DNA from: an uncultured virus (IMG/VR IMGVR_UViG_3300042477_000445)
Taxonomy: Duplodnaviria; Heunggongvirae; Uroviricota; Caudoviricetes
Reading direction: 5' to 3' (one strand)
DNA: 20,000 nucleotides
Virus record (IMG/VR): IMGVR_UViG_3300042477_000445
Coordinates: 54,863-74,862 of that record
Positions 109-10,501 of the stretch are shown in pieces (the stretch's first letter is position 1; every line of letters begins with the position of its first letter). A program made the translations under genes and the position numbers. The notes under the pieces were generated by a model. The model had not been told where the DNA came from. It saw only the letters and a list, made by a program, of their open reading frames with translations, and searched no databases.

Positions 109-1917
109 ATGAGTTCAATGTTAGAGCAAGCAATTCTAGATGCTAAAGAATTAAAAGAAGCAGCAATTAAAAACGCCCAACAGTCCATTATCGAGAAATA
201 CTCTAATGAATTTGAAGGTGAGATAGAAAAACTACTAGAACAAGCCGCTGCTCCAGCTGATCCCGCTGCGGCTGCTCCCGCTGCTGATCCAATGGCCGGT
301 CTTGGTGCTGCTCCTGCGGCTGCTCCTATGCCCGGTATGACCATGCCAGGATCTGCTCCTGTTGATCCAGAAAAAGCAAAGTCAGACTCAGATAATAAAT
401 CTTCAATGTTTGATAAACTAAATTATGCTTTTAAAGACGGAGAAGTAATTGAAGATAAAATTTTCCCAACAGGACTTGTTGAGGTAGATTTAGATTCTTT
501 GTCAGAATTTAGTTTTGAAGATAATAAAAAAACACCAGAACAAATGGCGTTACAAGAACTTAAAAACCTTTCTCTTAGAGAGCAGATTGAAGAAGAAATG
601 AATGATGACGATGATTATGATTTCGATTCAGATTCTTTTCCATATGAAGACTCAGAAGAAGAAGATGATGAGAATGAAGAAGAATCAGAAGAAGACGAAG
701 AACTAGACGACGAAGAATTCGAAGATGAAGACGAATTAGAAATGGACGATGAAGATTTTGAAGATAAAGATATGGAATCCGATTCGGATGAATTAGCAGA
801 TTTACAAGATTATAATGATGAAGGTAGTGTTGACCTAGAAGACGAAGAATCCGATATGGACATTGATATTGAAGACGAAGAGTTTACAGACGACGAAGAT
901 ATGGAAGATGAAGATCTTTATGGCACAGAAGACGATGTAGGATTCCACGTTGATTACGATACAGACGAAGAGGATGAAGAATCCGAAGAAGACTATAATC
1001 CAGACGCTGACGTAGAAGATTTTGAAGATGAAGAGTCAGAAGAAGATGTAGACGAAGAAGAAGAGGACTCCGAGGAAGACGAAGAGGACGAAGAATATTA
1101 TTATGACGACGAAGAGGAAGATTCTGAGGAAGACGAAGAAGATTCCGAAGAGGACGATGAGGAAGAATCAGAGGACGAGGAAGAAGATTTAGATGAAGCA
1201 AGAGATTTAACAGATAAAGAAAAGTCTAAACTTGACGATATTATTTCAAGATTAGAGAGAGCCTCTAAGTCTATCGAAAAAGGTAGTGCAAAGAATATGG
1301 TTGATGCTTCTGCTCGTCAACTAAAAGATCTACTAGATTCTCTTAAGGGTTCGGATAAAGAAGAACTACAAGAAGCTATTAAACTTGATTGGAAGAGATC
1401 TGGTCAAAGATCTCCATTCACCGGTATGTTTAAAGAAGAGGCAGAGCATGATTACATGCTAGAGCAAGTTCAAGCACAAATTGAAGCATTAGAACAAGAA
1501 GTCGAAGAACTTCAAGAATCTAATAAAAAACTAAAAAGTGGTTTAAAAGAGTCAATTAATCTTGTTGAAAATTTAACTGATAAAGTTAAAAAATATGAAC
1601 AAAAATTGCACGAATCAAGATTATTGAATTATAAGCTACTATATACTAATAAGGCGCTATCAGATAGTTCCCTAAATGGACAGCAAAAAAATAAAATTGC
1701 TGAATCTATTGACGGTGCCAAGACAGCTGAAGAAGTAAAATTGCTTTATGAAACATTAAAAAGCACAATGCGGGATGGAACCAGTAGAAGTACACCCAAA
1801 TCATTGAGCGAGGCAGTTGAAAGACGTTCTTCTTCACTTTTGCTAAGAGGCTCTCGTGCGGAGCCTAAGAAGCAAGATGATTTTGCTGAACGTATGAAAC
1901 GGTTAGCAGGTTTATAA
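109..1917 (+). CDS. Prohead core/scaffolding protein (T4 gp22-like position) with long Asp/Glu-rich tract
   Basis: Directly upstream of the capsid gene. Coiled-coil N- and C-terminal parts, many [IL]-x-E motifs of the type cut by T4 gp21 protease, Ala/Pro linker, C-terminus FAERMKRLAGL. Confidence 0.75.
   Translation: MSSMLEQAILDAKELKEAAIKNAQQSIIEKYSNEFEGEIEKLLEQAAAPADPAAAAPAADPMAGLGAAPAAAPMPGMTMPGSAPVDPEKAKSDSDNKSSMFDKLNYAFKDGEVIEDKIFPTGLVEVDLDSLSEFSFEDNKKTPEQMALQELKNLSLREQIEEEMNDDDDYDFDSDSFPYEDSEEEDDENEEESEEDEELDDEEFEDEDELEMDDEDFEDKDMESDSDELADLQDYNDEGSVDLEDEESDMDIDIEDEEFTDDEDMEDEDLYGTEDDVGFHVDYDTDEEDEESEEDYNPDADVEDFEDEESEEDVDEEEEDSEEDEEDEEYYYDDEEEDSEEDEEDSEEDDEEESEDEEEDLDEARDLTDKEKSKLDDIISRLERASKSIEKGSAKNMVDASARQLKDLLDSLKGSDKEELQEAIKLDWKRSGQRSPFTGMFKEEAEHDYMLEQVQAQIEALEQEVEELQESNKKLKSGLKESINLVENLTDKVKKYEQKLHESRLLNYKLLYTNKALSDSSLNGQQKNKIAESIDGAKTAEEVKLLYETLKSTMRDGTSRSTPKSLSEAVERRSSSLLLRGSRAEPKKQDDFAERMKRLAGL
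586..1200 (+). repeat. Low-complexity GAA/GAC/GAT/GAG tract encoding ~200 aa of poly-Asp/Glu with imperfect EEEDSEEDEED repeats
   Basis: Read directly from sequence; only one Lys and one His in the tract. Confidence 0.9.
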
Positions 1918-1948: not shown

Positions 1949-3778
1949 ATGGCAAGTATAGTCGAAAGATTAACAGAAAATATTGTTGAAAGAAATCTCC
2001 TTCGTGAAGGCGCTGCCCTCTCAAAGAAATGGGAAAGAACAGGTCTTCTAGAAGGAATCGATAGTGAGATGACAAAGACAACCATGTCTCGTCTTCTCGA
2101 AAATCAAGCAAAGGAACTACTCCGCGAAGCTTCCACAATGTCCGCAGGTGACGTTGAAGGTTTCGCAGCAGTTGCATTCCCAATTGTTAGACGCGTATTC
2201 GGTGGTCTAATTGCAAATGAACTCGTTGCAGTTCAACCAATGAGCCTCCCAAGCGGTCTAATCTTCTTCCTTGATTTTACCTATAGCAATGACACAGGAA
2301 ACAAAACATTCGCTGGTGCAGTCGGTGGCCAATCTATTTACGGCGGTAACGTTGTAGCTAGCCAAATCACTGGTGGTGTTAGCTTAACTGGTGTTGATGC
2401 AAGTGGCGTACAAAACCTAGAAAAGAGCTTCTACTCTTTAAATAACGGTTTCTCAAGCGTAACTGGCTCAAGAGTGCTTAATCATTCTTGGAATTATGGC
2501 AACGCTGGTAAGGCTGGTGCATCTTCTACGGTTGTTGTTTACCAAACTTCCAGCTGGACAGACGTTGGTCTATCAACTGCTACAGGTAGTTCATTAACTG
2601 GCTCAACAGATGCAGCGTTCGTCGCATACGATCCAGATGTTCTTGCAGACACTTCTGCTTTAACATACCAAAAATTAAGACTATTCTTTGATTTGGGAAC
2701 TTGGAATCAACTAGATAGAAATAATCTAGTAGCAATCAACATTACTGGTTCAACAATTTCTGGTTCATTGGTTAGAAGACTAACTAAATTGGGTCCAGTA
2801 AGCCAATCTTTAGATGTAGTTGTTAAAACAGATGCTGGTGCTCCAATTTCAGAAGTTGGTGTTGCCCCATCTATTGCATCAACAACTTTTGCAATTAGGG
2901 ATACATTAACAACTGGTAATTCTATAGGTTCTGTTCTTACCGATCTATATGGTCTAGAAGGCGCTGGATCTGGTTCAACATTGAATGGTCAGGATATTCC
3001 TGGGGCTAACTTTACAATTCCAGAGATTGACATCAAAGTTGATAGCATCGCTGTAACAGCTCAAACCAAGAAACTCAAGGCCAAGTGGTCACCAGAATTA
3101 GGTCAAGACCTAAATGCTTACCATAATCTTGACGCCGAAGTTGAGTTAACAAGCATCCTCTCCGAGCACGTTGCTCTTGAAATCGATCAAGAAATCCTCA
3201 ACGATCTCGTTAAGGGTGCAACAGCTGGTACTAAGTACTGGAGCCGTAGACCAGGTAAGTTTGTCAACCGTGACACAGGTGCAAGCATCACATCAGTTGG
3301 TGCCCCACCAGACTTCACAGGTAATGTCAGCATGTGGTATGAAACACTCATTGAAACAATCAATGACGTTTCTGCTCAAATCCACAGAAAGACAAGACGT
3401 GGTGGTGCAAACTTCCTCGTAACTTCACCAGAAGTTGCTAACCTCCTAGAGTTCACCTCTGGTTTCCGCGCTGATGTCAGCATGGAAGACCTAAAGGGCG
3501 GTTCAGTTGGCGCAGTCAAGGCTGGTAGCCTCAGCAAGAAGTTTGATCTTTATGTTGATCCATATTTCCCACGCAACCTAATCCTAGTTGGTCGTAGAGG
3601 CAAGGCATTCCTCGAAAGCGGTTATGTCTACGCTCCATACGTCCCACTAATGATTACACCAACAATCTTCGGTACAGAAGACTTTGTACCAAGAAAGGGT
3701 CTAATGACTCGCTACGCCAAGAAGATGGTTCGTCCAGACATGTATGGCCTAGTAGTTTGCCAAGACCTAATTGGTTAA
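1949..3778 (+). CDS. gp23: Major capsid protein, T4 gp23 family
   Basis: Family motifs FPIVRRVF..LIANELVAVQPMSLPSGLIFFL, VTAQTKKLKAKWSPELGQDLNAYH.LDAE.EL..ILSE...EID.EI, YAPYVPL and PRKGLMTRY. AAGGAG SD at 1935-1940. Confidence 0.96.
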   Translation: MASIVERLTENIVERNLLREGAALSKKWERTGLLEGIDSEMTKTTMSRLLENQAKELLREASTMSAGDVEGFAAVAFPIVRRVFGGLIANELVAVQPMSLPSGLIFFLDFTYSNDTGNKTFAGAVGGQSIYGGNVVASQITGGVSLTGVDASGVQNLEKSFYSLNNGFSSVTGSRVLNHSWNYGNAGKAGASSTVVVYQTSSWTDVGLSTATGSSLTGSTDAAFVAYDPDVLADTSALTYQKLRLFFDLGTWNQLDRNNLVAINITGSTISGSLVRRLTKLGPVSQSLDVVVKTDAGAPISEVGVAPSIASTTFAIRDTLTTGNSIGSVLTDLYGLEGAGSGSTLNGQDIPGANFTIPEIDIKVDSIAVTAQTKKLKAKWSPELGQDLNAYHNLDAEVELTSILSEHVALEIDQEILNDLVKGATAGTKYWSRRPGKFVNRDTGASITSVGAPPDFTGNVSMWYETLIETINDVSAQIHRKTRRGGANFLVTSPEVANLLEFTSGFRADVSMEDLKGGSVGAVKAGSLSKKFDLYVDPYFPRNLILVGRRGKAFLESGYVYAPYVPLMITPTIFGTEDFVPRKGLMTRYAKKMVRPDMYGLVVCQDLIG

Positions 3779-3801
3779 TCAACTAAGGGTTAATTAAGCA
3801 G

Positions 3802-3834
3802 AACCCCTGTCAGGGAAACTTGACAGGGGTTTTG
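3802..3834 (+). terminator. Rho-independent terminator after the capsid gene
   Basis: AACCCCTGTCAGG-GAAA-CTTGACAGGGGTT: 13-bp stem (one G-U) with GNRA tetraloop, followed by a T-rich tail, about 23 nt after the stop codon. Confidence 0.9.
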
Positions 3835-3846
3835 TGTTTCTGATAA

Positions 3847-3855
3847 ACTATTTAT
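3847..3855 (+). promoter_or_regulatory. ACTATTTAT motif, candidate promoter for the envelope-protein cassette
   Basis: Lies just after the terminator and before AAGGAG (3859-3864) and ATG 3870. Confidence 0.6.
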
Positions 3856-3869
3856 CAAAAGGAGAAACT

Positions 3870-5741
3870 ATGAAAAAACTTTTATTATCTTTATTATTGT
3901 TGACTGCATGTGGCGACGATTTAGGTTGGGAACACAAAGAAACAAAACACGATTGTGCTGATGCAGTTGTTGGAGACAGCGGTGTTTGTAATTTATGTCA
4001 AGACGTAACGGAGACAAAAGATGAGCAATCTGGAACAGAAGAAGTTGTTAGCGATGTTGCTGACAGTACCCAAAGTGACGTTCTCGCTGACAGTGGGAGC
4101 GATGACGCTGACGTTTCTGTCCCTGATGGCGTTACAGGAACGGACACAGAAGATACGCAAGATGCACAAGATGTACCAGAAGATGTAACTCAGGACGTTG
4201 CTCCACCACCAGAATGTGTTACGGCGACCGATTGTGTCGTTATAGCTTTGCCTTGTGTGGCACCAGATTGCCAAGAAGGTAAGTGTGTTAAAGTTCCATT
4301 TGATACACCATGTTCCGATAATAATGAATGTACGGCAGGCGATCAATGCCAACTTGGTGTATGTGTTGCTGGTATTCAAATTAATTGTGACGATCTAGAA
4401 TCTTGCACATTAGATTCTTGCGAGGCAGATAAAGGTTGCGTACATTTGCCAGTTGATGCAACTTGTGTCGATGGAGATGGTTGCACCGCAGAAGATATTT
4501 GCAAAGATGGTAAATGTGTAGGCGGTAAACCATTTAATTGCGATGATGGAAATGTTTGCACAGATGATACTTGCGAGACATTTGGTAAGGATGAAATTCA
4601 TGTTTGTAATCATTTGCCAAATCAAGCGACTTGTACAGACAACGATGTTTGCACATTAGATGATGCCTGTGAGGGTGTTGTTTGCAAATCAAAAGCAGTT
4701 GCTATTTGTGATGATAATAATGTTTGTACAGACAATACTTGCGATCCAGCAAATGGTTGTGTTTATTTAGCAAATGTAGCAACTTGTACCGACAATGACG
4801 CTTGTACTGTGAATGATTTATGCTCCGAAACTGTTTGTAAATCTGGATTAGTATTAAGTTGTGCAGATAATAATGAATGTACAACTGATCTATGCAAGTC
4901 AGAATCAGGTTGTTATTTTGAGAATAACACAAATGTTTGTAGCGATAATAATGTTTGTAGCATTGACGATAAGTGTGAGGCAGGATCATGTATTGCTGGC
5001 GCTCAAAAGGTTTGTGATGACGCTAATCTTTGCACCGTTGATTCATGTGATGCTGTAAATGGATGTGCTTCCGTAAATGCTGTTGATGGTACAAAATGTG
5101 CTGAAGGCGTCTGTAAAGACGGCTCTTGTGCTTGTGTAAGCGGGTTTGGCTGTGCTTTGCCTGCCTTCGTATATACTGGCGATGTGACTGCTGGTATGTT
5201 AGGAGGAATGGGTGGTGGTGTCGGTCCAAAGATGGGTTGCCCTGCTACTGATGTTTTAATCGGTTTAGGTTTTGATTTCAGTAATGGTCAAAAAACAGCC
5301 ACTAGAACAACTGCCGTTTGTGGTAAAGTTACAATTGAACAAAATGGAACTGTCATAACAACTCAAACAACTACACAAAAATCAGGTGGTTCTGGATGTT
5401 TTGGTTGGGATCCTTCAACTCCAACTCCGCTTGTAGTTTGCAAGAGTGGTTGGGCTGTTGTTGGTATTAAAGGCAAAAAACCCGGAGGCACTCTATTCAA
5501 TTCTGTAAAAGTTGTTTGTGGTAAACTCGATGTTGCTGGCAAACCAACTGGCGAGACAGAAGTTTTAAATGTAGAAGGAACACTAGGCTCAGGTGTTGAT
5601 CAAGAAGTATTATGCCCAGAAAAAACAATTGCTCGTTATTTTGAGACAAGAGCTGGTTGTGGGCAAGATGCTTTGACTATGTATTGTGCTACTGCAACAC
5701 CAGATTGTACTGGTCAAGAATTAATTTGTAAGGATTTATAA
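3870..5741 (+). CDS. Cys-rich repeat lipoprotein: acidic linker, Dictyostelium/myxobacterial CTDC-type repeats, C-terminal beta-prism (jacalin/VMO-I-like) domain
   Basis: Start moved to ATG 3870 (SD AAGGAG). Signal MKKLLLSLLLLTA-C with lipobox LTAC; ten CxDxxxC[TS]xxxxC units; C-terminal three-fold repeat (CPATDVLIGL / CKSGWAVVGI / CPEKTIARYF). Confidence 0.8.
   Translation: MKKLLLSLLLLTACGDDLGWEHKETKHDCADAVVGDSGVCNLCQDVTETKDEQSGTEEVVSDVADSTQSDVLADSGSDDADVSVPDGVTGTDTEDTQDAQDVPEDVTQDVAPPPECVTATDCVVIALPCVAPDCQEGKCVKVPFDTPCSDNNECTAGDQCQLGVCVAGIQINCDDLESCTLDSCEADKGCVHLPVDATCVDGDGCTAEDICKDGKCVGGKPFNCDDGNVCTDDTCETFGKDEIHVCNHLPNQATCTDNDVCTLDDACEGVVCKSKAVAICDDNNVCTDNTCDPANGCVYLANVATCTDNDACTVNDLCSETVCKSGLVLSCADNNECTTDLCKSESGCYFENNTNVCSDNNVCSIDDKCEAGSCIAGAQKVCDDANLCTVDSCDAVNGCASVNAVDGTKCAEGVCKDGSCACVSGFGCALPAFVYTGDVTAGMLGGMGGGVGPKMGCPATDVLIGLGFDFSNGQKTATRTTAVCGKVTIEQNGTVITTQTTTQKSGGSGCFGWDPSTPTPLVVCKSGWAVVGIKGKKPGGTLFNSVKVVCGKLDVAGKPTGETEVLNVEGTLGSGVDQEVLCPEKTIARYFETRAGCGQDALTMYCATATPDCTGQELICKDL
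4311..5096 (+). repeat. Five tandem ~51-aa double units (A+B, 4 Cys each) of Cys-rich repeat
   Basis: Example: CTDNDVCTLDDACEGVVCKSKAVAI + CDDNNVCTDNTCDPANGCVYLANVAT. Units are diverged at DNA level. Confidence 0.9.
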
Positions 5742-5743
5742 CA

Positions 5744-6694
5744 ATGAAAAAACTGCTCTTAACTCTCTTTTTATTACTATTATCAAATACTGCCAATGCT
5801 TGGGAAGCAACAGTTGGGCTTGGTGGCTATGGTAGGATTTTTGACGAAAAGGATCAGTTAGGAGCAGTTTCAAAACATGAAAGTTTAATTCCAGAATTTT
5901 CAGGTGGGTTGGCATTGAATGGATCATTTCTGTTTGATGCCAGCCCTTCTTTTAGAATTGGTCCAGATTTAATGCTTGGATACGGCTGGTTGTCTGCCCA
6001 AGTAAATGAAAGGTTTGGAACAAGTTTGCAAAATCAAACTATTATTACCTCTCTAAATGTTCAGTATCAAATTTATGATTTTAGAGTTTCTGTAAAGCCC
6101 GGCTTTGTTGTCAATACTCTAACCGCTGGATACACAGATAAAATTGACTCTGACACAGGTTTCTCTTCGTCCTTAAGATTTTCAACGGATCTATTTTCAT
6201 CAGCAAGATTTTTTTTTGAGCCACAGGTTTTATTCTCTCCCTCTGTAGAATCAAAGAATTCTTTTGTTCCATCGTATAGTTTAACTTTGGGCTTTGAAAA
6301 AATCTTTTCGCCAAAGAAGGTTCCTGCTCCCGTTGTGGAGAAACCAGTAGAAGTAAAGCCAGCAGTGAAAACACCAGAACCAGTTGTTGAACCTATTAAA
6401 CTTCCAGAACCAGCAACCCCAGTTAAGCAACCAGATCCACCAGTTAAAGTTGAGGAAACTAAAGTAGAACCTCAATTAAATGTTGAGTCAAAAGGATACT
6501 TGGAAAACATATTAAAGGTTCATAAAGTATTAAAATCATCCATTAAAATAATTTATAGTGAAGATAAGATTCTTAAAGAAAAGGCAGAAAAATTAGCAAC
6601 TTGGTTTGCAGAGCGTGGAGTAAGTAAAGAAGATATTGTTCTAACAAACACGCTTGAAACAAAAGGCATAAGAATAGAAATTCTCAAAAAGTAG
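5744..6694 (+). CDS. OmpA-like outer-membrane protein: beta-barrel, Pro-rich linker, degenerate OmpA C-terminal domain
   Basis: Sec signal ending ANA|W; amphipathic strands ending YSLTLGFEKIF; P/V/E/K linker; KAEKLATWFAERGVSKEDI...GIRIEI resembles OmpA_C RA..V..YL...GI...R...NRRVEI. Confidence 0.7.
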   Translation: MKKLLLTLFLLLLSNTANAWEATVGLGGYGRIFDEKDQLGAVSKHESLIPEFSGGLALNGSFLFDASPSFRIGPDLMLGYGWLSAQVNERFGTSLQNQTIITSLNVQYQIYDFRVSVKPGFVVNTLTAGYTDKIDSDTGFSSSLRFSTDLFSSARFFFEPQVLFSPSVESKNSFVPSYSLTLGFEKIFSPKKVPAPVVEKPVEVKPAVKTPEPVVEPIKLPEPATPVKQPDPPVKVEETKVEPQLNVESKGYLENILKVHKVLKSSIKIIYSEDKILKEKAEKLATWFAERGVSKEDIVLTNTLETKGIRIEILKK

Positions 6695-6700
6695 GATAAT

Positions 6701-8764
6701 ATGTTAAAGAAAATAATACCGCTTTTATTTTTAGTCTCCTGTTCGCAAGAGACAGCAGCGCCCACTATTCAAGGGGGCATTGGCTTTGACATACAGCAAG
6801 ACACCACCATCATTGTTAAAGATATAGAACAACCAGATGTTATTGAATCAGACACAGAACCAGTGGAAGATACACAGGTAGAAGACGCGGAAAATGACCT
6901 AGAAAATACGGAAATAATAGAAGTAGAAGAAGATGCGGTCGAAGATGTTGAGCCTCCTGTAGAGGACACAGAAGAGCCTGAATGTATTGATGAAGACGGC
7001 GATGGGTTTGGTGAAAACTGCAACTTTGGTATTGATTGCGATGACTTCAATCCAAACTTTGGAGATGTATGCCCAGATTGCTCAAAGGCTGGAACTATAG
7101 GCTGTACTTGTTCTGGCAAGCCTTTATCGTGTTATGAATACGATCCAGCGACAGTAGGAAAAGGCTTGTGTAAAAAAGGTCAGCAATTATGTACAGACGG
7201 CTTCTGGAAAGCATGTAGCGGGAGCATTGGACCAGCACCAGAACTCTGCGACTTCAAAGACAACGACTGCGATGGCGAAACAGACGAGGGCGTAAAATCA
7301 ACTTGTGGTAATTGTGATCTAACTTGTAATCAACAAACTATTGGTTCTGGTGGTAAAGGATGGAATCTAAATAGTGAAAATGCTACAGGGCTTGGTTTGG
7401 ATCCACAAGGTAATGTAACTCTTGATTTATCAGCGATCTCGCTCAACTTGAAGTTTATTTGGATCGCAAACTCACCAAATAACACTGTATCCAAAGTTGA
7501 TTGTAAGACCATTACAGAAGTTGGTAGATTCCAAGTTTGCTCAGACCCTTCAAGAACTTCTGTTGACCTTGAGGGAAATGTTTGGGTTGCTTGCCGTGGC
7601 GATGGTGCCGTAACAAAAATTATCGCAGATAAAACAAAATGTGCTGATAAAAACGGCAATGGTATTATTGAAACATCGACAAGCTCACAGCCAATAGGCA
7701 ATGATGAGTGTATCAAGTTTATTGTAAACCCCGGCAAAGGATCTTATGCTAGAGGTGCCGCTGTAGATAAAGAAAATCATGTATGGATAGGTTATTGGAA
7801 CCAAAAAACAATGGTTCGTCTTAATGCCAACACTGGCGCAACGATGACGGAAATTCCATTGGGTGTATCGCCCTATGGTTTAGTAATTGACCAAAAGGGA
7901 ATGATCTGGGCGCAAGGTGAGTTCAACACGCTGGTCATGATAGACCCTTTGACACAAGTCGTTACAAAGAATAATACCTTACCACAACTAAAGTTCCCTG
8001 CTAGTGCTTACGGGCTTAATGTAGATAAGTATGGTCGTTTGTGGGTTGCTTCGGGCAACAAAGCATCTGTTTATGATCCCAAGACATTACAATGGAAGGT
8101 CGTTAACATGAACTGGGGTGGTGGTCGTGGTGTTGCTACATCAAATGATGGTTATACTTATGTCGCCGTAGATGGTTCAGGCGGGGCAGTAAAAATAAAT
8201 GGCAATGTTGATCCACCACAAGTAGAAGGTTTTATCAAGGGAGCAGGAAGCCCTGTCGGTGCTGCTATTGACTATGATGGTTTTGTTTGGGTCGTAAATC
8301 AAGGTGGTTCAAGCGCAACAAAGATGGATCCAAATACAATGTCTGCGGTAGGAACTGTTTCAGTTGGTTCATCTCCATACACATACTCAGACATGACTGG
8401 TTATACTCTAAACTACTTTACTGCGCCAAAAGGTCAATACAGCACAGTATTCTTTGGAAGTGTATCATCAAACCCAATAACAACTTCCACAATGAAACAA
8501 GTGTGGCAGTCAATTTCAGCAGAAGCGGATCTTCCAGAAGGGACAGCATTGAGGTTTAGATTAAGAGCGGGCAATACAAAAGTAGAACTAGAAAATGCTA
8601 AATGGTCTGAGCCTATTGATTTTCCGCCAGAAGTATTTCCTTATGATCTTACCAAGGCAAATATTATCGGCAACATGCTACAAGTTGAAATACAGTTGAC
8701 AACAAAAGATAAAAAGGTTGCTCCAACTCTAAAATCTATAACGGCGAAGTCCAAACTGATTTAA
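6701..8764 (+). CDS. Lipoprotein with MopE-type putative metal-binding motifs, Vgb/streptogramin-lyase-like beta-propeller and C-terminal beta domain (myxobacterial type)
   Basis: Lipobox LVSC; CIDEDGDGFG..DCDD and PELCDFKDNDCDGETDEG motifs; blades FIWIANS, PSRTSVDLEGNVWVA, PYGLVIDQKGMIW, YGLNVDKYGRLWVA, AIDYDGFVWVVN, SPYTYSDMTG. Confidence 0.8.
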   Translation: MLKKIIPLLFLVSCSQETAAPTIQGGIGFDIQQDTTIIVKDIEQPDVIESDTEPVEDTQVEDAENDLENTEIIEVEEDAVEDVEPPVEDTEEPECIDEDGDGFGENCNFGIDCDDFNPNFGDVCPDCSKAGTIGCTCSGKPLSCYEYDPATVGKGLCKKGQQLCTDGFWKACSGSIGPAPELCDFKDNDCDGETDEGVKSTCGNCDLTCNQQTIGSGGKGWNLNSENATGLGLDPQGNVTLDLSAISLNLKFIWIANSPNNTVSKVDCKTITEVGRFQVCSDPSRTSVDLEGNVWVACRGDGAVTKIIADKTKCADKNGNGIIETSTSSQPIGNDECIKFIVNPGKGSYARGAAVDKENHVWIGYWNQKTMVRLNANTGATMTEIPLGVSPYGLVIDQKGMIWAQGEFNTLVMIDPLTQVVTKNNTLPQLKFPASAYGLNVDKYGRLWVASGNKASVYDPKTLQWKVVNMNWGGGRGVATSNDGYTYVAVDGSGGAVKINGNVDPPQVEGFIKGAGSPVGAAIDYDGFVWVVNQGGSSATKMDPNTMSAVGTVSVGSSPYTYSDMTGYTLNYFTAPKGQYSTVFFGSVSSNPITTSTMKQVWQSISAEADLPEGTALRFRLRAGNTKVELENAKWSEPIDFPPEVFPYDLTKANIIGNMLQVEIQLTTKDKKVAPTLKSITAKSKLI

Positions 8765-8767
8765 CAA

Positions 8768-8776
8768 ACTATTTAT
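8768..8776 (+). promoter_or_regulatory. ACTATTTAT motif 4 nt before the transglycosylase ATG
   Basis: Fills most of the 16-nt intergenic gap; no SD present. Confidence 0.55.
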
Positions 8777-8780
8777 AGTA

Positions 8781-9296
8781 ATGTTAGTTATTTTTAAGCT
8801 GAGTTTCTGGATCAGCTTATTGTTCTCTTGTAGACCAGTAGATCCAGTAATAAGCAACAAAATAATTGATTCAGTTGAGTTTCAGGAATCGAGAGGTGTA
8901 GCTTCTGTAAGAGATAATGGTTATTGTGTTGGGTTAATGCAGATAGATAGAAGATATTCTCCAATACAAAAACCTTATTTAAAAATTCCTTATCTCAATC
9001 GAATCATTGGCGTGCGAATGCTTCGATATTGGCATAAGCAGGCGAGAGGTGATATGAATCATGCTCTTGCGGCCTATAATTGTGGATATGCTGGATTAAA
9101 TACCACTTGCGGTTCTGGATATGCCAGCGCCGTTTTAAATAGAAATCTTGTTCGTAAGAGAAAGAATCCCGAAAGTTGTTTTATTATGGGAAATATTATT
9201 AATTATTATTTCGACAATAAACACTATTTAGTTAAGTGGAGAAATAAATTATGGCATTACCAACAATCACCCCGGCATCAACGACAACAACGGTAA
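8781..9296 (+). CDS. Lytic transglycosylase (SLT/family 1) with predicted lipoprotein signal
   Basis: Three SLT motifs in order: QES (catalytic Glu-Ser), GLMQI, ALAAYNCG. Hydrophobic N-terminus ending LLFS-C. Confidence 0.85.
   Translation: MLVIFKLSFWISLLFSCRPVDPVISNKIIDSVEFQESRGVASVRDNGYCVGLMQIDRRYSPIQKPYLKIPYLNRIIGVRMLRYWHKQARGDMNHALAAYNCGYAGLNTTCGSGYASAVLNRNLVRKRKNPESCFIMGNIINYYFDNKHYLVKWRNKLWHYQQSPRHQRQQR
9223..9230 (+). promoter_or_regulatory. ACTATTTA motif upstream of the neck operon, inside the transglycosylase 3' end
   Basis: 8 of 9 match to the motif; followed by TAAGTGGAGAAA (identical to 92-103) and ATG 9251. Confidence 0.5.
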
Positions 9297-10501
9297 GATT
9301 ATCATCTTCCGCAACAGCAACAGAAGCTTCAACCGCTTCAAACTATCCGTTCAGCATATACACAACAGATCAATACTTCTTGACTGGAGCGGCGGAGCAA
9401 GTTGCCTTTGTTTATAAAATGTTAGGCGGCGATGTATTAGATATTGAATTAAGAAATCAAAATGTATTTTCTGCTTACCAAGCCGCTTGTATGGAATATT
9501 CCTACCTTGTAAACATTCATCAAGCAAAGAACTCTCTACCAAATATGCTTGGTGCAACAACAGGAACTTTTGATCATAAGGGTTCTCTTTTGTCTGGTCC
9601 AACCGGCTCAAACGTTGCATTAAAGTTTCCAAGATTCCAAGCACAACTACCAAGAAATGTTGCCAAAGGTTTTGGAGCCTCTGTTGGGGTTGGCGGTGAT
9701 GTTCCTGTTTATTCAGCATCAATTAATTTAACCTCAAGTGTTCAAGATTATGATTTACAAGCAGCAGCAGACGAAGCATTAACTGCTGCTGGAAAATCAA
9801 ATTTAGTTGGCAAAAGAGCAGTTGTAACAAAAGTTTATTATGTAACTCCAAGAGCTATGTGGAGATTCTTTGCTTATTACGGTGGTATTAATGTCATTGG
9901 TAATATGACAACCTATGGTATGTATACCGATGATTCTACGTTTGAAGTCGTTCCCACTTGGCAGAATAAGCTTCAAGCTATGATGTATGAGGATTCAATC
10001 TATACAAGAACTTCTCATCACTCTTATGAGATTGTGGACAACAAATTAAGACTATATCCAGTGCCAGCAGTTACAGACGTAACAAAGATGTATTTTAGAT
10101 TTTACATCGTTCCCGACGCTTGGGAAGCAGGAACTTCAAATGATGGTATTGGTGGCATCAATAACCTAAACACTCTACCTTTCGAGAATATACCCTATAC
10201 TAACATCAATAGCATAGGAAAGCAATGGATCAGAAGATATGCATTAGCTTTGTCAAAAGAAATGCTTGGTCAAATTCGTGGTAAGTTTGGAGGAAATGTT
10301 CCATCTCCAGGAGTTACAATCACTCTTAATGCAACCGCTTTATTAGGTGAAGCCGAGAAAGAAAAGACTGCATTAAGAGATGAATTGGTTAAAGTTCTTG
10401 ATGAATTAACATATACCAAGATTACAGAAACACAAGCCAGCATAGCCAAGAATGCTGCGGAAACAATGAAATACGCACCACTACCAATCTTTGTAGGATA
10501 A
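9251..10501 (+). CDS. Neck / head-tail adaptor protein, T4 gp13-like
   Basis: C-terminal WIRRYALALSKEMLGQIRGKF..PG..ITLNA..L..EA..E...L..EL...PLPIFVG pattern, N-terminal LGG.V.DIEL, and position at the start of the neck cluster. Confidence 0.8.
   Translation: MALPTITPASTTTTVRLSSSATATEASTASNYPFSIYTTDQYFLTGAAEQVAFVYKMLGGDVLDIELRNQNVFSAYQAACMEYSYLVNIHQAKNSLPNMLGATTGTFDHKGSLLSGPTGSNVALKFPRFQAQLPRNVAKGFGASVGVGGDVPVYSASINLTSSVQDYDLQAAADEALTAAGKSNLVGKRAVVTKVYYVTPRAMWRFFAYYGGINVIGNMTTYGMYTDDSTFEVVPTWQNKLQAMMYEDSIYTRTSHHSYEIVDNKLRLYPVPAVTDVTKMYFRFYIVPDAWEAGTSNDGIGGINNLNTLPFENIPYTNINSIGKQWIRRYALALSKEMLGQIRGKFGGNVPSPGVTITLNATALLGEAEKEKTALRDELVKVLDELTYTKITETQASIAKNAAETMKYAPLPIFVG

What the first reader, a model, noticed from the sequence alone, without database searches (positions are those of the whole stretch)
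3847..9296. Four-gene cell-envelope cassette inserted between capsid and neck genes of a myophage
Seen: after the capsid terminator come four co-oriented genes, all with export signals (lipoboxes LTAC, LVSC, LFSC and one Sec signal ANA|W). The first three are tightly coupled (gaps of 2 and 6 nt) and preceded by the same ACTATTTAT motif as the structural operons. Known: virion proteins assemble in the cytoplasm and lack such signals, and disulfide-rich proteins fold in the periplasm. Inference: the phage devotes 5.4 kb of late expression to remodelling the infected cell surface (adhesin, OM barrel, propeller lipoprotein, peptidoglycan cutter). Possible roles are receptor masking/superinfection exclusion, holding neighbouring cells in contact before lysis, or an unusual lysis/vesicle route. 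I know of no described phage system with this composition.
Basis: partly seen in the sequence, partly recalled or inferred. Interest (0 to 1): 0.88.

Follow-up and report, generated by a model that had tools for sequence, protein, structure and literature searches.

The report
Exported surface-protein genes in lake phage
An uncultured T4-type lake phage carries, between its capsid and neck genes, genes for proteins that are sent to the infected cell's outer membrane, chiefly a sugar-binding head on a stiff stalk paired with an OmpA-like barrel, a design that resembles the cell-to-cell contact proteins of myxobacteria but whose role in infection is untested.

Summary
Four co-oriented genes with export signals lie at 3870-9296 between the gp23-type capsid gene and the neck gene, and the join is not an assembly error. 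This scan met the same cassette before on other DNA (e1-5859509, e1-5859519).

The block is not one cassette but three units.
- **A-B:** a phage-specific pair that was linked wherever the flanks could be read. A has a lipobox, an acidic tether, a stalk with 49 cysteines and a jacalin-fold lectin head. B has an 8-strand outer-membrane barrel, a proline-rich linker and a small periplasmic domain.
- **C:** an NHL/YVTN-type propeller lipoprotein. The phage copies fall in two separate places in a Myxococcota tree.
- **D:** an exported GH23 lytic transglycosylase. It stays at this site in 7 close relatives that lack A-B-C.

In related phages A-B(-C) lies elsewhere, directly upstream of the lysis cassette.

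My best reading is a surface adhesin display. It shares its architecture with myxobacterial TraA/TraB but shows no detectable homology to them. Receptor masking, help with lysis and host-fitness roles are not excluded.

The host is unknown: the phage has 33% GC and the Myxococcota relatives 57-71%. I rate it a new variant of phage-encoded envelope genes, with moderate to high interest.

The parts
1949..3778 (+). Major capsid protein (gp23 type); left flank of the insertion site
   Evidence: Pfam Gp23 2.3e-69 and PHROG 138 1.1e-69
3798..3835 (+). Stem-loop terminator after the capsid gene
   Evidence: 17-pair stem followed by a T run. The identical sequence stands before D in relatives L152 and L153, which lack A-B-C
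3847..3855 (+). Promoter-like motif ACTATTTAT, 14 nt before the start of A
   Evidence: 8 exact copies on + and 0 on - in the contig; the motif class is present in 42 of 42 relatives' capsid-neck spacers
3870..5741 (+). A: 623-aa lipoprotein. Lipobox LTAC (Cys14); acidic tether, residues 20-110 (27 D/E against 3 K/R); disulfide-rich stalk, residues 111-424 (49 Cys, Dicty_CTDC repeats); jacalin-fold lectin head, residues 425-623
   Evidence: Pfam PF00526 4e-19. Head model pLDDT 89.9. Foldseek gave 78 PDB matches at E<=1e-3, and all those listed are jacalin-related lectins. Invariant Cys14. Cys counts
5744..6694 (+). B: 316-aa OmpA-like protein. Sec signal ANA|WE; 8-strand outer-membrane barrel, residues 21-188; disordered Pro-rich linker, 193-248; small alpha/beta C-terminal domain, 247-314
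   Evidence: AlphaFold model on a 30-sequence alignment. Foldseek top matches are OmpA, OmpX, OmpW and Ail, E 1e-7 to 1e-6. Weak NCBIfam hit to the TDE1717 barrel family, 2.3e-4, below cut-off. No Pfam family
6701..8764 (+). C: 687-aa lipoprotein. Lipobox LVSC (Cys14); acidic tether; Cys-rich MopE-type module, residues 95-215 (16 Cys); NHL/YVTN-type beta-propeller; C-terminal domain
   Evidence: Pfam SGL 1.7e-9, Reg_prop and MopE motif. Profile against PDB: Pizza/PknD NHL propellers down to 1.9e-23. 253 homologues. Tree
8768..8776 (+). Second copy of the motif ACTATTTAT. It lies 2 nt after the stop of C and 4 nt before the ATG of D, with no Shine-Dalgarno sequence
   Evidence: The same tight motif-ATG arrangement is seen before all D homologues examined
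8781..9296 (+). D: 171-aa exported GH23 (SLT) lytic transglycosylase with an N-terminal hydrophobic signal ending in Cys17. Its last 46 nt overlap the neck gene
   Evidence: Pfam SLT 7.4e-8, 32.4 bits against a cut-off of 21.3. Homologues at 54-64% identity in 9 other loci, 7 of them at capsid-D-neck without A-B-C
9223..9231 (+). Motif variant ACTATTTAG inside the 3' end of D, 19 nt before the neck gene start
   Evidence: The same variant is seen before the neck gene in relatives
9251..10501 (+). Neck/adaptor-type gene (416 aa); right flank of the site
   Evidence: PHROG 211, head-tail adaptor, 5.5e-9. It follows the capsid gene directly in 42 of 72 relatives

Best explanation
The block is genuine phage DNA made of three separately mobile units, each encoding exported envelope proteins.

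**Shown or well supported**
- A and C have conserved lipoprotein signals.
- B has a Sec signal and folds as an 8-strand outer-membrane barrel with a proline-rich linker and a small periplasmic domain.
- A ends in a jacalin-fold lectin domain carried on a stalk with 49 cysteines.
- A and B are 2 nt apart, and A lay directly upstream of B in every B locus examined.

**Inferred mechanism**
1. The genes are transcribed from the clade's structural-gene promoter motif.
2. The products pass through the Sec and lipoprotein pathways to the outer membrane.
3. B sits in the outer membrane, tied to the cell wall through its C-terminal domain, and partners A.
4. A is held by its lipid anchor and long acidic tether and projects its lectin head from the cell surface, where it binds a glycan.
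5. The infected cell thereby sticks to neighbouring cells, so that progeny are released next to new hosts or outer membranes come into contact.

This is the same anchor, cysteine stalk, lectin-like head and barrel-plus-wall-binding-partner logic as myxobacterial TraA/TraB, reached without detectable homology.

C is an accessory surface lipoprotein borrowed from Myxococcota. D is the lineage's own exported wall-cutting enzyme and is not part of the A-B unit.
For: - **Reality of the join:** two further records carry the same arrangement with every protein 100% identical, and four independent lake runs bridge both junctions.
- **Purifying selection:** 11 of the 13 variant sites listed in natural populations are third codon positions.
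- **Folds:** the B barrel has pLDDT above 90, and its best Foldseek matches are OmpA, OmpX, OmpW and Ail. The A head has pLDDT 89.9, and 78 PDB matches at E<=1e-3, all those listed being jacalin-related lectins.
- **Signals are conserved**.
- **A-B linkage:** A lies directly upstream of B in 10 of 10 metagenome loci and in L137 and L138. These cover at least three phage lineages and two genome positions.
- **B is phage-specific by sequence:** 0 of 5 Myxococcota genomes that carry C have it, and only 2 of 301 sampled Myxococcota genomes gave matches, both weak (E 1.4e-5 and 7.5e-4) and confined to profile positions 192-303, the linker and C-terminal part.
- **The head domain also occurs in proteins that IMG names MYXO-CTERM surface proteins**.
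- **TraA/TraB architecture, from passages I read:** TraA has a signal peptide, a lectin-like head, a cysteine-rich stalk and a lipid tag. TraB has a signal peptide, an outer-membrane barrel, a linker and an OmpA domain. The two genes form an overlapping two-gene operon, and overexpression makes cells adhere (PMC3325183; PMC12045341).
- **Context:** the same contig carries sugar-nucleotide genes (gmd, an fcl-like epimerase, a cytidylyltransferase), so surface glycans are a wider theme of this phage.
Against: - No sequence or profile similarity to a real traAB-like operon: hhalign probability 0.8% for B against the TraB-like protein and 3.2% for A against the TraA-like protein.
- A lacks PA14, TIGR04201 and MYXO-CTERM. 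B lacks a detectable PF00691 domain.
- B's barrel has 8 strands and is much smaller than the N-terminal part of TraB.
- The head of A is conserved among phages (66-87% identity), not polymorphic like the TraA head. It therefore probably binds one conserved ligand and does not discriminate kin.
- Surface exposure of A, glycan binding and A-B contact are all untested.
- Expression timing is not fixed: in L138, A is coupled to a nuclease gene and has no motif of its own.
- The host is unknown. The phage has 32.7% GC and the Myxococcota loci 57-71%.
- A-B-C is dispensable: the closest relatives lack it at this site, and B was not found in the 111- and 117-kb relative contigs, which are 61% and 64% complete.
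Confidence: 0.35

Rival explanations
1. Receptor masking or progeny protection. The lectin head of A, and perhaps C, binds the phage's own receptor glycan on the infected cell and on its debris. This blocks superinfection and keeps released virions from being lost on envelope fragments, as the T5 lipoprotein Llp does for FhuA (recalled, not read here).
For: A is an exported lipoprotein with a lectin-fold head that is conserved among the phages, which fits one fixed ligand. In this phage it lies behind the structural-gene motif. The same contig carries surface-glycan biosynthesis genes. The cassette is optional, as exclusion genes usually are.
Against: Known masking lipoproteins are small. A 310-residue disulfide stalk and a dedicated barrel partner are more than masking seems to need. 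Nothing identifies the receptor. There is no similarity to Llp, Cor, Imm or Sp families in PHROGs, where A, B and C have no functional family.
Confidence: 0.2
2. Accessory lysis or envelope-breaching module. A-B(-C), together with D, helps to breach the host's outer layers at the end of infection.
For: In related phages A-B(-C) lies directly upstream of a lysis cassette. That cassette holds an endolysin (a peptidoglycan-binding domain plus a C-terminal part carrying what looks like a LAS/M15 metallopeptidase motif; that reading is recalled, and no family search named the catalytic domain), an i-spanin-like protein, a protein with a signal peptide and a C-terminal membrane helix, and a holin-like protein. 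In the L147/L148 lineage a secreted protein with a GxSxG motif and membrane coiled-coil proteins lie beside A-B. In the window A-B-C lies next to the wall-cutting enzyme D.
Against: The lysis cassette is complete without them in G002, a close relative. The 335 nt upstream of its endolysin show no A, B or C. In L138 the promoter-like motif separates C from the endolysin. D keeps its place without A-B-C in 7 relatives. A lectin on a stalk and a propeller resemble no known holin, spanin or disruptin. A-B-C is optional.
Confidence: 0.12
3. Host-type surface functions kept running during infection (an auxiliary-gene reading). The phage supplies surface lipoproteins of the host's own kind, for example for attachment to prey or particles, to sustain the cell until lysis.
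For: C belongs to a large family with several paralogues per genome in freshwater Myxococcota MAGs, with up to 74% amino-acid identity. The phage copies lie in two separate bacterial clades. The head of A recurs in proteins that IMG names MYXO-CTERM proteins. A-like cysteine repeats lie within 9 kb of C homologues in 15 of 50 bacterial loci.
Against: B, and the A-B pairing, were not found in the bacteria searched. The phage copies are fully adapted to phage base composition (third-position GC 21-32% against 57-71% overall GC for the bacterial loci), so they are old phage genes, not fresh loans. No metabolic or uptake function can be read from the domains.
Confidence: 0.15
4. Virion components, or an assembly artefact.
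For: The genes lie inside the structural module, between the capsid and neck genes.
Against: The lipobox and Sec signals are conserved. A has 64 cysteines, which need an oxidising compartment. The genes are missing from the same site in 42 of 72 relatives and in the 7 closest ones. The join is reproduced in independent assemblies and runs.
Confidence: 0.03

Closest known systems
TraA/TraB outer-membrane-exchange pair of Myxococcus xanthus (PMC3325183 and PMC12045341, passages read)
   Same: Both are a two-gene, translationally coupled unit. One product is a lipid-anchored protein with a beta-rich, lectin-type head on a disulfide-rich repeat stalk. The other is a Sec-exported outer-membrane barrel joined by a flexible linker to a small periplasmic domain. 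The TraA paper itself notes that its repeats resemble Pfam PF00526, the family found in A.
   Different: No detectable homology. The anchor of A is an N-terminal lipobox, not a C-terminal MYXO-CTERM tag, so the polarity is reversed. The head has a jacalin fold, not a PA14-like one, and is conserved, not polymorphic. B has an 8-strand barrel and a roughly 70-residue C-terminal domain with no PF00691 match. The genes are carried by a lytic-type phage and not by the cell.
Phage-encoded outer-membrane proteins and lipoproteins: lambda Lom (Ail/OmpX-type barrel), lambda Bor, T5 Llp, Cor (recalled, not read here)
   Same: All are accessory, dispensable phage genes whose products go to the host outer membrane. 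B shares the 8-strand barrel fold with OmpX and Ail.
   Different: Those are single small genes, mostly of temperate phages. Here there is a linked lectin-stalk and barrel pair plus a 687-residue propeller lipoprotein in a T4-type phage. There is no family-level similarity.
OmpA (E. coli)
   Same: An 8-strand barrel, a proline-rich hinge and a C-terminal periplasmic domain. The full-length OmpA model is the best Foldseek match. The nearest ESM Atlas cluster for the C-terminal part is an OmpA-family cluster, at score 0.90, which is a lead only.
   Different: No Pfam OmpA match. The C-terminal domain is about 70 residues, and the profile search against PDB sequences found nothing below E 0.4.
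Jacalin-related lectins (banana lectin, Horcolin, ZG16, griffithsin)
   Same: The beta-prism I fold. An invariant G-C-G-Q-D loop lies near the C terminus, at residues 596-600, where these lectins carry a GxxxD sugar-binding loop (that motif is recalled).
   Different: No sequence-level Pfam match. The head has 11 cysteines, is about 50 residues longer than the lectins matched, and is fused to a stalk and a lipid anchor.
Specialised or exported lytic transglycosylases and signal-bearing endolysins (comparison for D)
   Same: A GH23 SLT domain with the E-S, GLMQ and AYNxG motifs visible in the sequence (the motif names are recalled) and an N-terminal export signal.
   Different: The same phage lineage also has an ordinary signal-less endolysin with a holin-like and spanin-like genes, so D is not the sole lysin. 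It has a promoter-like motif abutting its ATG, and in other phages it lies inside tRNA arrays.

Membership tests
TraA (myxobacterial outer-membrane-exchange receptor) | PA14-like variable head domain | tested here: not met
   No PA14 match in Pfam. The head folds as a jacalin-type beta-prism.
TraA (myxobacterial outer-membrane-exchange receptor) | TIGR04201 cysteine-rich repeats forming a stalk | tested here: not met
   NCBIfam gave 0 families for A at E<=0.01. A has PF00526 repeats instead, which PMC3325183 says resemble TIGR04201. hhalign of the A family against a TraA-like protein gave probability 3.2%.
TraA (myxobacterial outer-membrane-exchange receptor) | C-terminal MYXO-CTERM sorting tag | tested here: not met
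   A ends ...QELICKDL with no hydrophobic, Arg-rich tail. It has an N-terminal lipobox instead.
TraB | Outer-membrane barrel, linker, then C-terminal OmpA (PF00691) domain | tested here: inconclusive
   The barrel and linker are met by the model. PF00691 was not detected. The ESM Atlas gives an OmpA cluster at 0.90, a lead only. hhalign against a TraB-like protein gave probability 0.8%; the only aligned stretch is the C-terminal domain against the OmpA domain.
TraAB system | Adjacent, translationally coupled two-gene operon | tested here: met
   A 2-nt gap in the window. A lies directly upstream of B in 10 of 10 metagenome loci and in L137 and L138.
TraAB system | Mediates cell-cell adhesion and outer-membrane exchange | not testable with these tools
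   Needs expression and transfer assays.
Bacterial lipoproteins (lipobox, signal peptidase II) | [LVI][ASTVI][GAS]C after a positively charged n-region and a hydrophobic h-region (pattern recalled) | tested here: met
   A has LTAC and C has LVSC. The Cys is invariant in 17 of 17 and 18 of 18 sequences. For D the pattern is inconclusive: LFSC here, but LFTC, LLTC and LVVC in relatives. No SignalP-type predictor was available.
Jacalin-like lectin domain | Beta-prism I fold with a sugar-binding GG loop and GxxxD loop | tested here: inconclusive
   The fold is met. Pfam Jacalin was not detected by sequence. GGMGGG and GCGQD are invariant, but their role was not mapped onto a structure. Sugar binding is untested.
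8-strand OmpA/OmpX-type outer-membrane barrel | Eight antiparallel transmembrane strands after a Sec signal | tested here: met
   Eight strands between residues 21 and 188, with pLDDT mostly above 90. 44 PDB matches at E<=1e-3, led by OmpA, OmpX, OmpW and Ail.
GH23 / SLT lytic transglycosylase (D) | SLT domain with a catalytic Glu | tested here: met
   PF01464 at 32.4 bits against a cut-off of 21.3. The QES...GLMQ...AYNCG motifs are conserved in 8 of 8 sequences. Activity is untested.
Phage lysis cassette (holin, endolysin, spanin) | A, B or C belong to a holin, endolysin or spanin family, or are required parts of the cassette | tested here: not met
   No lysis PHROG for A, B or C. The cassette stands without them in G002.

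The most novel reading that the evidence does not exclude
The phage encodes its own outer-membrane contact and fusion device, working like TraA/TraB. Late in infection A-B would dock the infected cell onto neighbours and merge outer membranes, passing outer-membrane lipoproteins such as C, or the phage receptor, to uninfected cells and so preparing the next hosts. This would be the first case of a virus taking over bacterial outer-membrane exchange with its own non-homologous machinery.
Probability: 0.1. Interest if true: 0.9.

Novelty: new variant of a known kind. Interest (0 to 1): 0.6.

Why it matters
Phage genes that change the host surface are known mainly as small single genes of temperate phages. 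Here a lytic-type T4 relative that is widespread in lake metagenomes (24 runs hold at least 69% of the sampled words of the stretch) spends 5.4 kb on exported proteins.

Their core is a lectin-on-a-stalk plus barrel pair that has stayed linked across phage lineages while moving between genome sites.

If the pair makes infected cells adhere or exchange membrane, it would add a new way for phages to shape encounters with their next hosts. It would also give an independent, smaller model of the TraA/TraB design.

The repeated exchange of the propeller lipoprotein with Myxococcota also gives a handle on the host of a large group of uncultured freshwater phages.

Tried and rejected
- **A-B complex prediction** (mature A with the barrel of B, both as alignments): no verdict, score 0.00 against a mark of 0.32, and the controls were not run. 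This is no evidence either way.
- **RNA evidence:** no RNA holder was listed among the 24 runs, so nothing can be said about expression.
- **B profile against PDB sequences:** nothing below E 0.4.
- **Padloc** was not searched.
- **Maximum-likelihood tree with the default treekit search:** it did not finish in 288 s. I used FastTree instead, so the 'two captures' result rests on SH-like supports in an unrooted tree, and the direction of transfer is not settled. Six rows were dropped before the tree: L135, L136 and L137 (duplicates) and L088, L115 and L140 (fragments).
- **Host assignment to Myxococcota:** considered, left open. Gene sharing points there, but the GC gap of 33% against 57-71% argues against those particular MAG lineages.
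- **D as the phage's only endolysin:** rejected.
- **Simple enrichment of the motif:** not significant by count. The case rests on strand, position and conservation.
- **Literature:**
  - The search 'phage, jacalin, lipoprotein, outer membrane' gave 2 unrelated reviews (listing only).
  - In the preprint on myxophages (10.64898/2026.09.14.751636), a term search of the text found 0 occurrences of lipoprotein, outer membrane or lectin. Its supplements were not seen.

Full report
**What the window is**

The window is the last 20 kb of a 74,862-bp IMG/VR virus record that CheckV estimates at 33% complete. Its genes are those of a T4-type myophage structural module:
- an acidic scaffold protein at 109-1917;
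- a gp23-type capsid protein at 1949-3778 (Pfam Gp23, 2.3e-69);
- a neck/adaptor-type gene at 9251-10501;
- a sheath gene at 11912-14851;
- two tube-type genes and a baseplate hub gene.

The nearest cultured capsid relatives are distant: Flavobacterium phage vB_FspM_immuto at 47%, Microcystis phage Mel-JY01 at 48% and Rhodothermus phage RM378 at 40%.

**The observation**

A (3870-5741), B (5744-6694), C (6701-8764) and D (8781-9296) are co-oriented, with gaps of 2 and 6 nt between the first three.

The N-termini are MKKLLLSLLLLTAC (A), MKKLLLTLFLLLLSNTANA|WE (B), MLKKIIPLLFLVSC (C) and MLVIFKLSFWISLLFSC (D). These signals are conserved features, not chance strings:
- the lipobox Cys of A is invariant in 17 of 17 aligned sequences;
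- that of C is invariant in 18 of 18;
- the A-W-E cleavage region of B is invariant in 30 of 30;
- the Cys of D is kept in 8 of 8, although the residue before it varies (S, T or V), so a lipoprotein fate for D is likely but not secure.

A has 64 cysteines, C has 22, D has 5 and the barrel B has none. That is the pattern expected of proteins that fold in the periplasm or on the cell surface.

**The join is real**

- Two other IMG/VR records carry capsid-A-B-C-D-neck with every protein 100% identical.
- 24 lake or freshwater runs hold 69-100% of the sampled words of the stretch.
- In four of those runs, none flagged as a possible source, contigs cross both junctions without a single difference.
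- Where variant contigs differ, 11 of the 13 listed sites are third codon positions. The genes are therefore under purifying selection in nature.

**The motif**

- ACTATTTAT occurs exactly 8 times on the + strand and never on the - strand of the contig. Seven of the eight lie just upstream of a start codon, within about 40 nt.
- In the window the exact copies precede the scaffold gene, A, D and the sheath gene. A one-mismatch copy precedes the neck gene.
- A plain count with one mismatch is not above chance: 15 against 10.9 expected.
- The variant class CTA[ACT]TTA is present in the capsid-neck spacer of 42 of 42 relatives with a short spacer, against 1.7 expected. In 41 of the 42 it lies 16-34 nt before the neck gene and after a stem-loop terminator.

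I read it as this clade's promoter element for structural genes. That it is 'late' is an inference from the genes it precedes.

**What the four proteins are**

*A.* After the lipid-anchor Cys comes a 90-residue acidic tether (27 D/E against 3 K/R). A stalk follows at residues 111-424, with 49 cysteines and Dicty_CTDC repeats (PF00526, 4e-19). The 199-residue head was modelled at pLDDT 89.9. Its structural neighbours in the PDB are jacalin-related lectins: 78 matches at E<=1e-3, with Horcolin, rice JAC1, ZG16, banana lectin, Calsepa and griffithsin at the top. An invariant G-C-G-Q-D loop at residues 596-600 lies where such lectins carry a GxxxD sugar loop. That motif is recalled, not tested.

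*B.* The model has eight strands between residues 21 and 188 at high confidence, a disordered proline-rich linker at 193-248 and a small alpha/beta domain at 247-314. The best structural matches are OmpA, OmpX, OmpW and Ail. The ESM Atlas places the C-terminal part nearest an OmpA-family cluster at score 0.90, which is a lead only. Pfam finds nothing.

*C.* It has the same lipobox-plus-acidic-tether design, followed by a 16-cysteine MopE-type module and an NHL/YVTN-type propeller. The profile matches Pizza and PknD propellers down to 1.9e-23.

*D.* It is a GH23 SLT-domain enzyme (32.4 bits against a cut-off of 21.3) with its hallmark motifs conserved.

**The block is a composite, not one cassette**

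*D is a resident of the lineage.* Seven close relatives (neck protein 87-88% identical) have capsid, terminator, motif, D and neck with no A-B-C. Two of these have a different 1.3-kb insert before D. In L152 and L153 the terminator is letter for letter that of the window. In every D locus the motif abuts the ATG with no Shine-Dalgarno sequence, which suggests a leaderless message. In two other phages D lies inside tRNA arrays.

*A-B-C is an insert between the motif and D.* The motif is present on both sides of it, at 3847 and 8768. In three different contexts the stop codon of C is followed within 2-3 nt by AACTAYTTAT: before D here, before the neck gene in L084, and before the endolysin in L138. 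I infer that the motif serves as the joint of recombination.

*A-B is the linked core.* In 10 of 10 metagenome loci found with the B profile, an A homologue lies directly upstream. The same holds in viral records L137 and L138.

*C is optional.*
- It follows B in 3 of the 10 metagenome loci (L139, L140, L142) and in L137 and L138.
- In L146 and L147 at least 1.2 kb downstream of B has no C. In L147 that stretch encodes a 221-residue membrane coiled-coil protein, a 161-residue protein and then the endolysin.
- In L143 and L145 about 700 nt of downstream sequence gave no C match.
- In L141, L144 and L148 the contig ends too soon to tell.
- In L084 a 74%-identical C stands before the neck gene without D. 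The 31 nt upstream of it do not look like the end of B, which is weak evidence.

*The site is a hot spot.* Of 72 capsid relatives that have both the capsid and the neck gene, 42 have spacers of 94-231 nt and 30 have inserts of 394-2791 nt. Most inserts encode unrelated small basic or 'MGTKRVGLAR' proteins, and one encodes a lipoprotein.

**A second home next to the lysis genes**

L137 and L138 belong to a related phage. Its RuvC-like, primase, SbcCD-like and terminase genes are 40-59% identical to those of the window's contig and lie in the same order. There A (70%), B (45%) and C (48%) lie between the SbcCD-like gene and a lysis cassette. That cassette consists of:
- an endolysin with a PG_binding_1 domain, and a C-terminal part carrying what looks to me like a LAS/M15-type metallopeptidase motif (a recalled reading; no family search named the catalytic domain);
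- a 137-residue protein with an N-terminal membrane helix and a coiled coil;
- a 143-residue protein with a signal peptide and a C-terminal membrane helix;
- a holin-like protein whose sequence shows two hydrophobic stretches.

At least one further lineage (L147/L148) shows the same SbcCD ... A-B ... endolysin placement. L141 shows SbcCD directly followed by A-B before its contig ends. In L138, A is coupled to the stop codon of the nuclease gene, and the motif appears only after C. The timing of expression need not be the same everywhere.

The window's lineage has the same lysis cassette elsewhere (G002: endolysin 86% identical, holin-like protein 79%). The 335 nt upstream of that endolysin show no A, B or C. 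D is therefore not the only lysin, and A-B-C is not a required part of lysis.

**Relation to bacteria**

- The C family has 253 members at E<=1e-3 in the protein search. It is found, often as two to three paralogues per genome and in tandem, in freshwater and groundwater Myxococcota MAGs: 50 loci, up to 74% identity over residues 110-687.
- In a FastTree of 79 rows, the window's C and L084's C group with unnamed metagenome proteins (support 100), next to one Myxococcota clade. The L138/L139 C lies inside another Myxococcota clade (support 99-100). The tree needs at least three label changes. I read this as at least two separate exchanges. The tree is unrooted and fast, so the direction is open.
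- The head domain of A recurs in proteins that IMG names MYXO-CTERM proteins, at 46-56% identity.
- B was not found next to any of the 50 bacterial C loci, nor in 5 genomes that carry C. Among 301 sampled Myxococcota genomes only two gave matches, both weak and confined to the linker and C-terminal part.
- The phage genes are fully at phage composition (third-position GC 21-32%), the phage overall is 32.7% GC, and the bacterial loci are 57-71%.
- The host therefore remains open. Gene traffic points to Myxococcota, and composition points away from these particular lineages.

**How it most likely works**

A lipid anchor, a long acidic tether, a rigid disulfide stalk and a lectin head make up the design of a surface-displayed adhesin. 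A barrel with a flexible linker and a small periplasmic domain is the design of an OmpA-like wall-tethered partner.

This is the design described for TraA/TraB of Myxococcus. TraA has a signal peptide, a lectin-like head, a cysteine-rich stalk and a lipid tag. TraB has a signal peptide, a barrel, a linker and an OmpA domain. The two genes overlap, overexpression makes cells adhere, and the pair is proposed to act as a fusogen (passages of PMC3325183 and PMC12045341).

I fetched a real traAB-like operon from a Myxococcota genome. Its first gene encodes 703 residues with 71 Cys and a MYXO-CTERM-like tail. Its second encodes 503 residues with TSP_3 repeats and an OmpA domain at 3.6e-21. Profile comparison gave no homology: probabilities 3.2% and 0.8%.

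The resemblance is one of architecture, not of family. It also has differences: the anchor polarity is reversed, the head fold is different and the head is conserved, and the barrel is much smaller.

I therefore commit to 'surface glycan-binding adhesin pair that makes the infected cell stick to neighbours' at about 0.35. The rivals are receptor masking (0.2), a host-type auxiliary function (0.15), help with lysis (0.12) and virion parts or artefact (0.03). The remainder is left for roles I have not thought of.

The parts list itself (exported, outer-membrane directed, with the folds as stated) I hold at about 0.85.

**Novelty**

Phage-encoded outer-membrane barrels and lipoproteins are known. 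A linked lectin-stalk and barrel pair with a propeller lipoprotein in a T4-type phage is not something I could find: two literature searches, plus a term search of a myxophage preprint.

The same cassette was already noted twice by this scan on other DNA. My tests agree with those notes on the mobile set, the resident wall-cutting enzyme, the lectin-stalk and barrel pairing, and the repeated exchange of the propeller gene. What I add is the comparison with TraA/TraB, tested and found to be analogy only; the placement next to lysis cassettes in related phages; and the motif-flanked structure of the units.

Noticed in passing
G000:C1:238-8649 (locus L186; about 46-54 kb upstream of the window): The phage contig begins with a run of sugar-nucleotide genes: a CTP_transf_3 cytidylyltransferase, a class-III aminotransferase, a glyoxalase-like gene, a TIM-barrel gene, an SDR, an MptE-like gene, an fcl-like epimerase, GDP-mannose 4,6-dehydratase (1.2e-125) and a mannose-6-P-isomerase-type cupin. 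The phage may therefore also alter surface glycans, the likely ligands of a lectin.
   Followed up: partly
window 8768-8785 and D homologues in L150-L158: The promoter-like motif ends 4-5 nt before the ATG of D, with no ribosome-binding site, in all 8 sequences looked at. This suggests a conserved leaderless transcript.
   Followed up: partly
window 9251-9296: The last 46 nt of D overlap the start of the neck gene and contain that gene's own motif copy (9223-9231). The basic tail of D (...WHYQQSPRHQRQQR) is kept only in loci where D abuts the neck gene, and differs in the tRNA-array copies.
   Followed up: partly
L148 5797-7112 and L147 3122-4285: In another phage lineage A-B is flanked by a 277-residue secreted protein with a GHSRGG (GxSxG-type) motif, a 155-residue coiled-coil protein with one hydrophobic stretch, and a 221-residue membrane coiled-coil protein, just before the endolysin.
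   Followed up: no
30 of the 72 capsid-relative loci L002-L081 that have both genes (for example L041 1785-2399 and L060 6154-6609): Inserts at the capsid-neck junction of other relatives mostly encode a recurring family beginning MGTKRVGLAR/MGTKRVGWAR, followed by a small basic MGKKRR protein. These are possibly head decoration or internal proteins. One relative (L068 3269-4213) has a 314-residue lipoprotein there.
   Followed up: no
L155 40-1397 and L158 147-3243: D homologues of other phages lie inside tRNA gene arrays of 4 and 7 tRNAs.
   Followed up: partly
window 109-1917: The scaffold-type protein has an extremely acidic central region of about 250 residues, made almost entirely of D/E-rich repeats.
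   Followed up: no
window 7241-7291 (within C): High-GC loose ends from other organisms attach to this stretch in all four runs laid. It encodes part of the Cys-rich module of C (residues 95-215), which Myxococcota proteins share.
   Followed up: no
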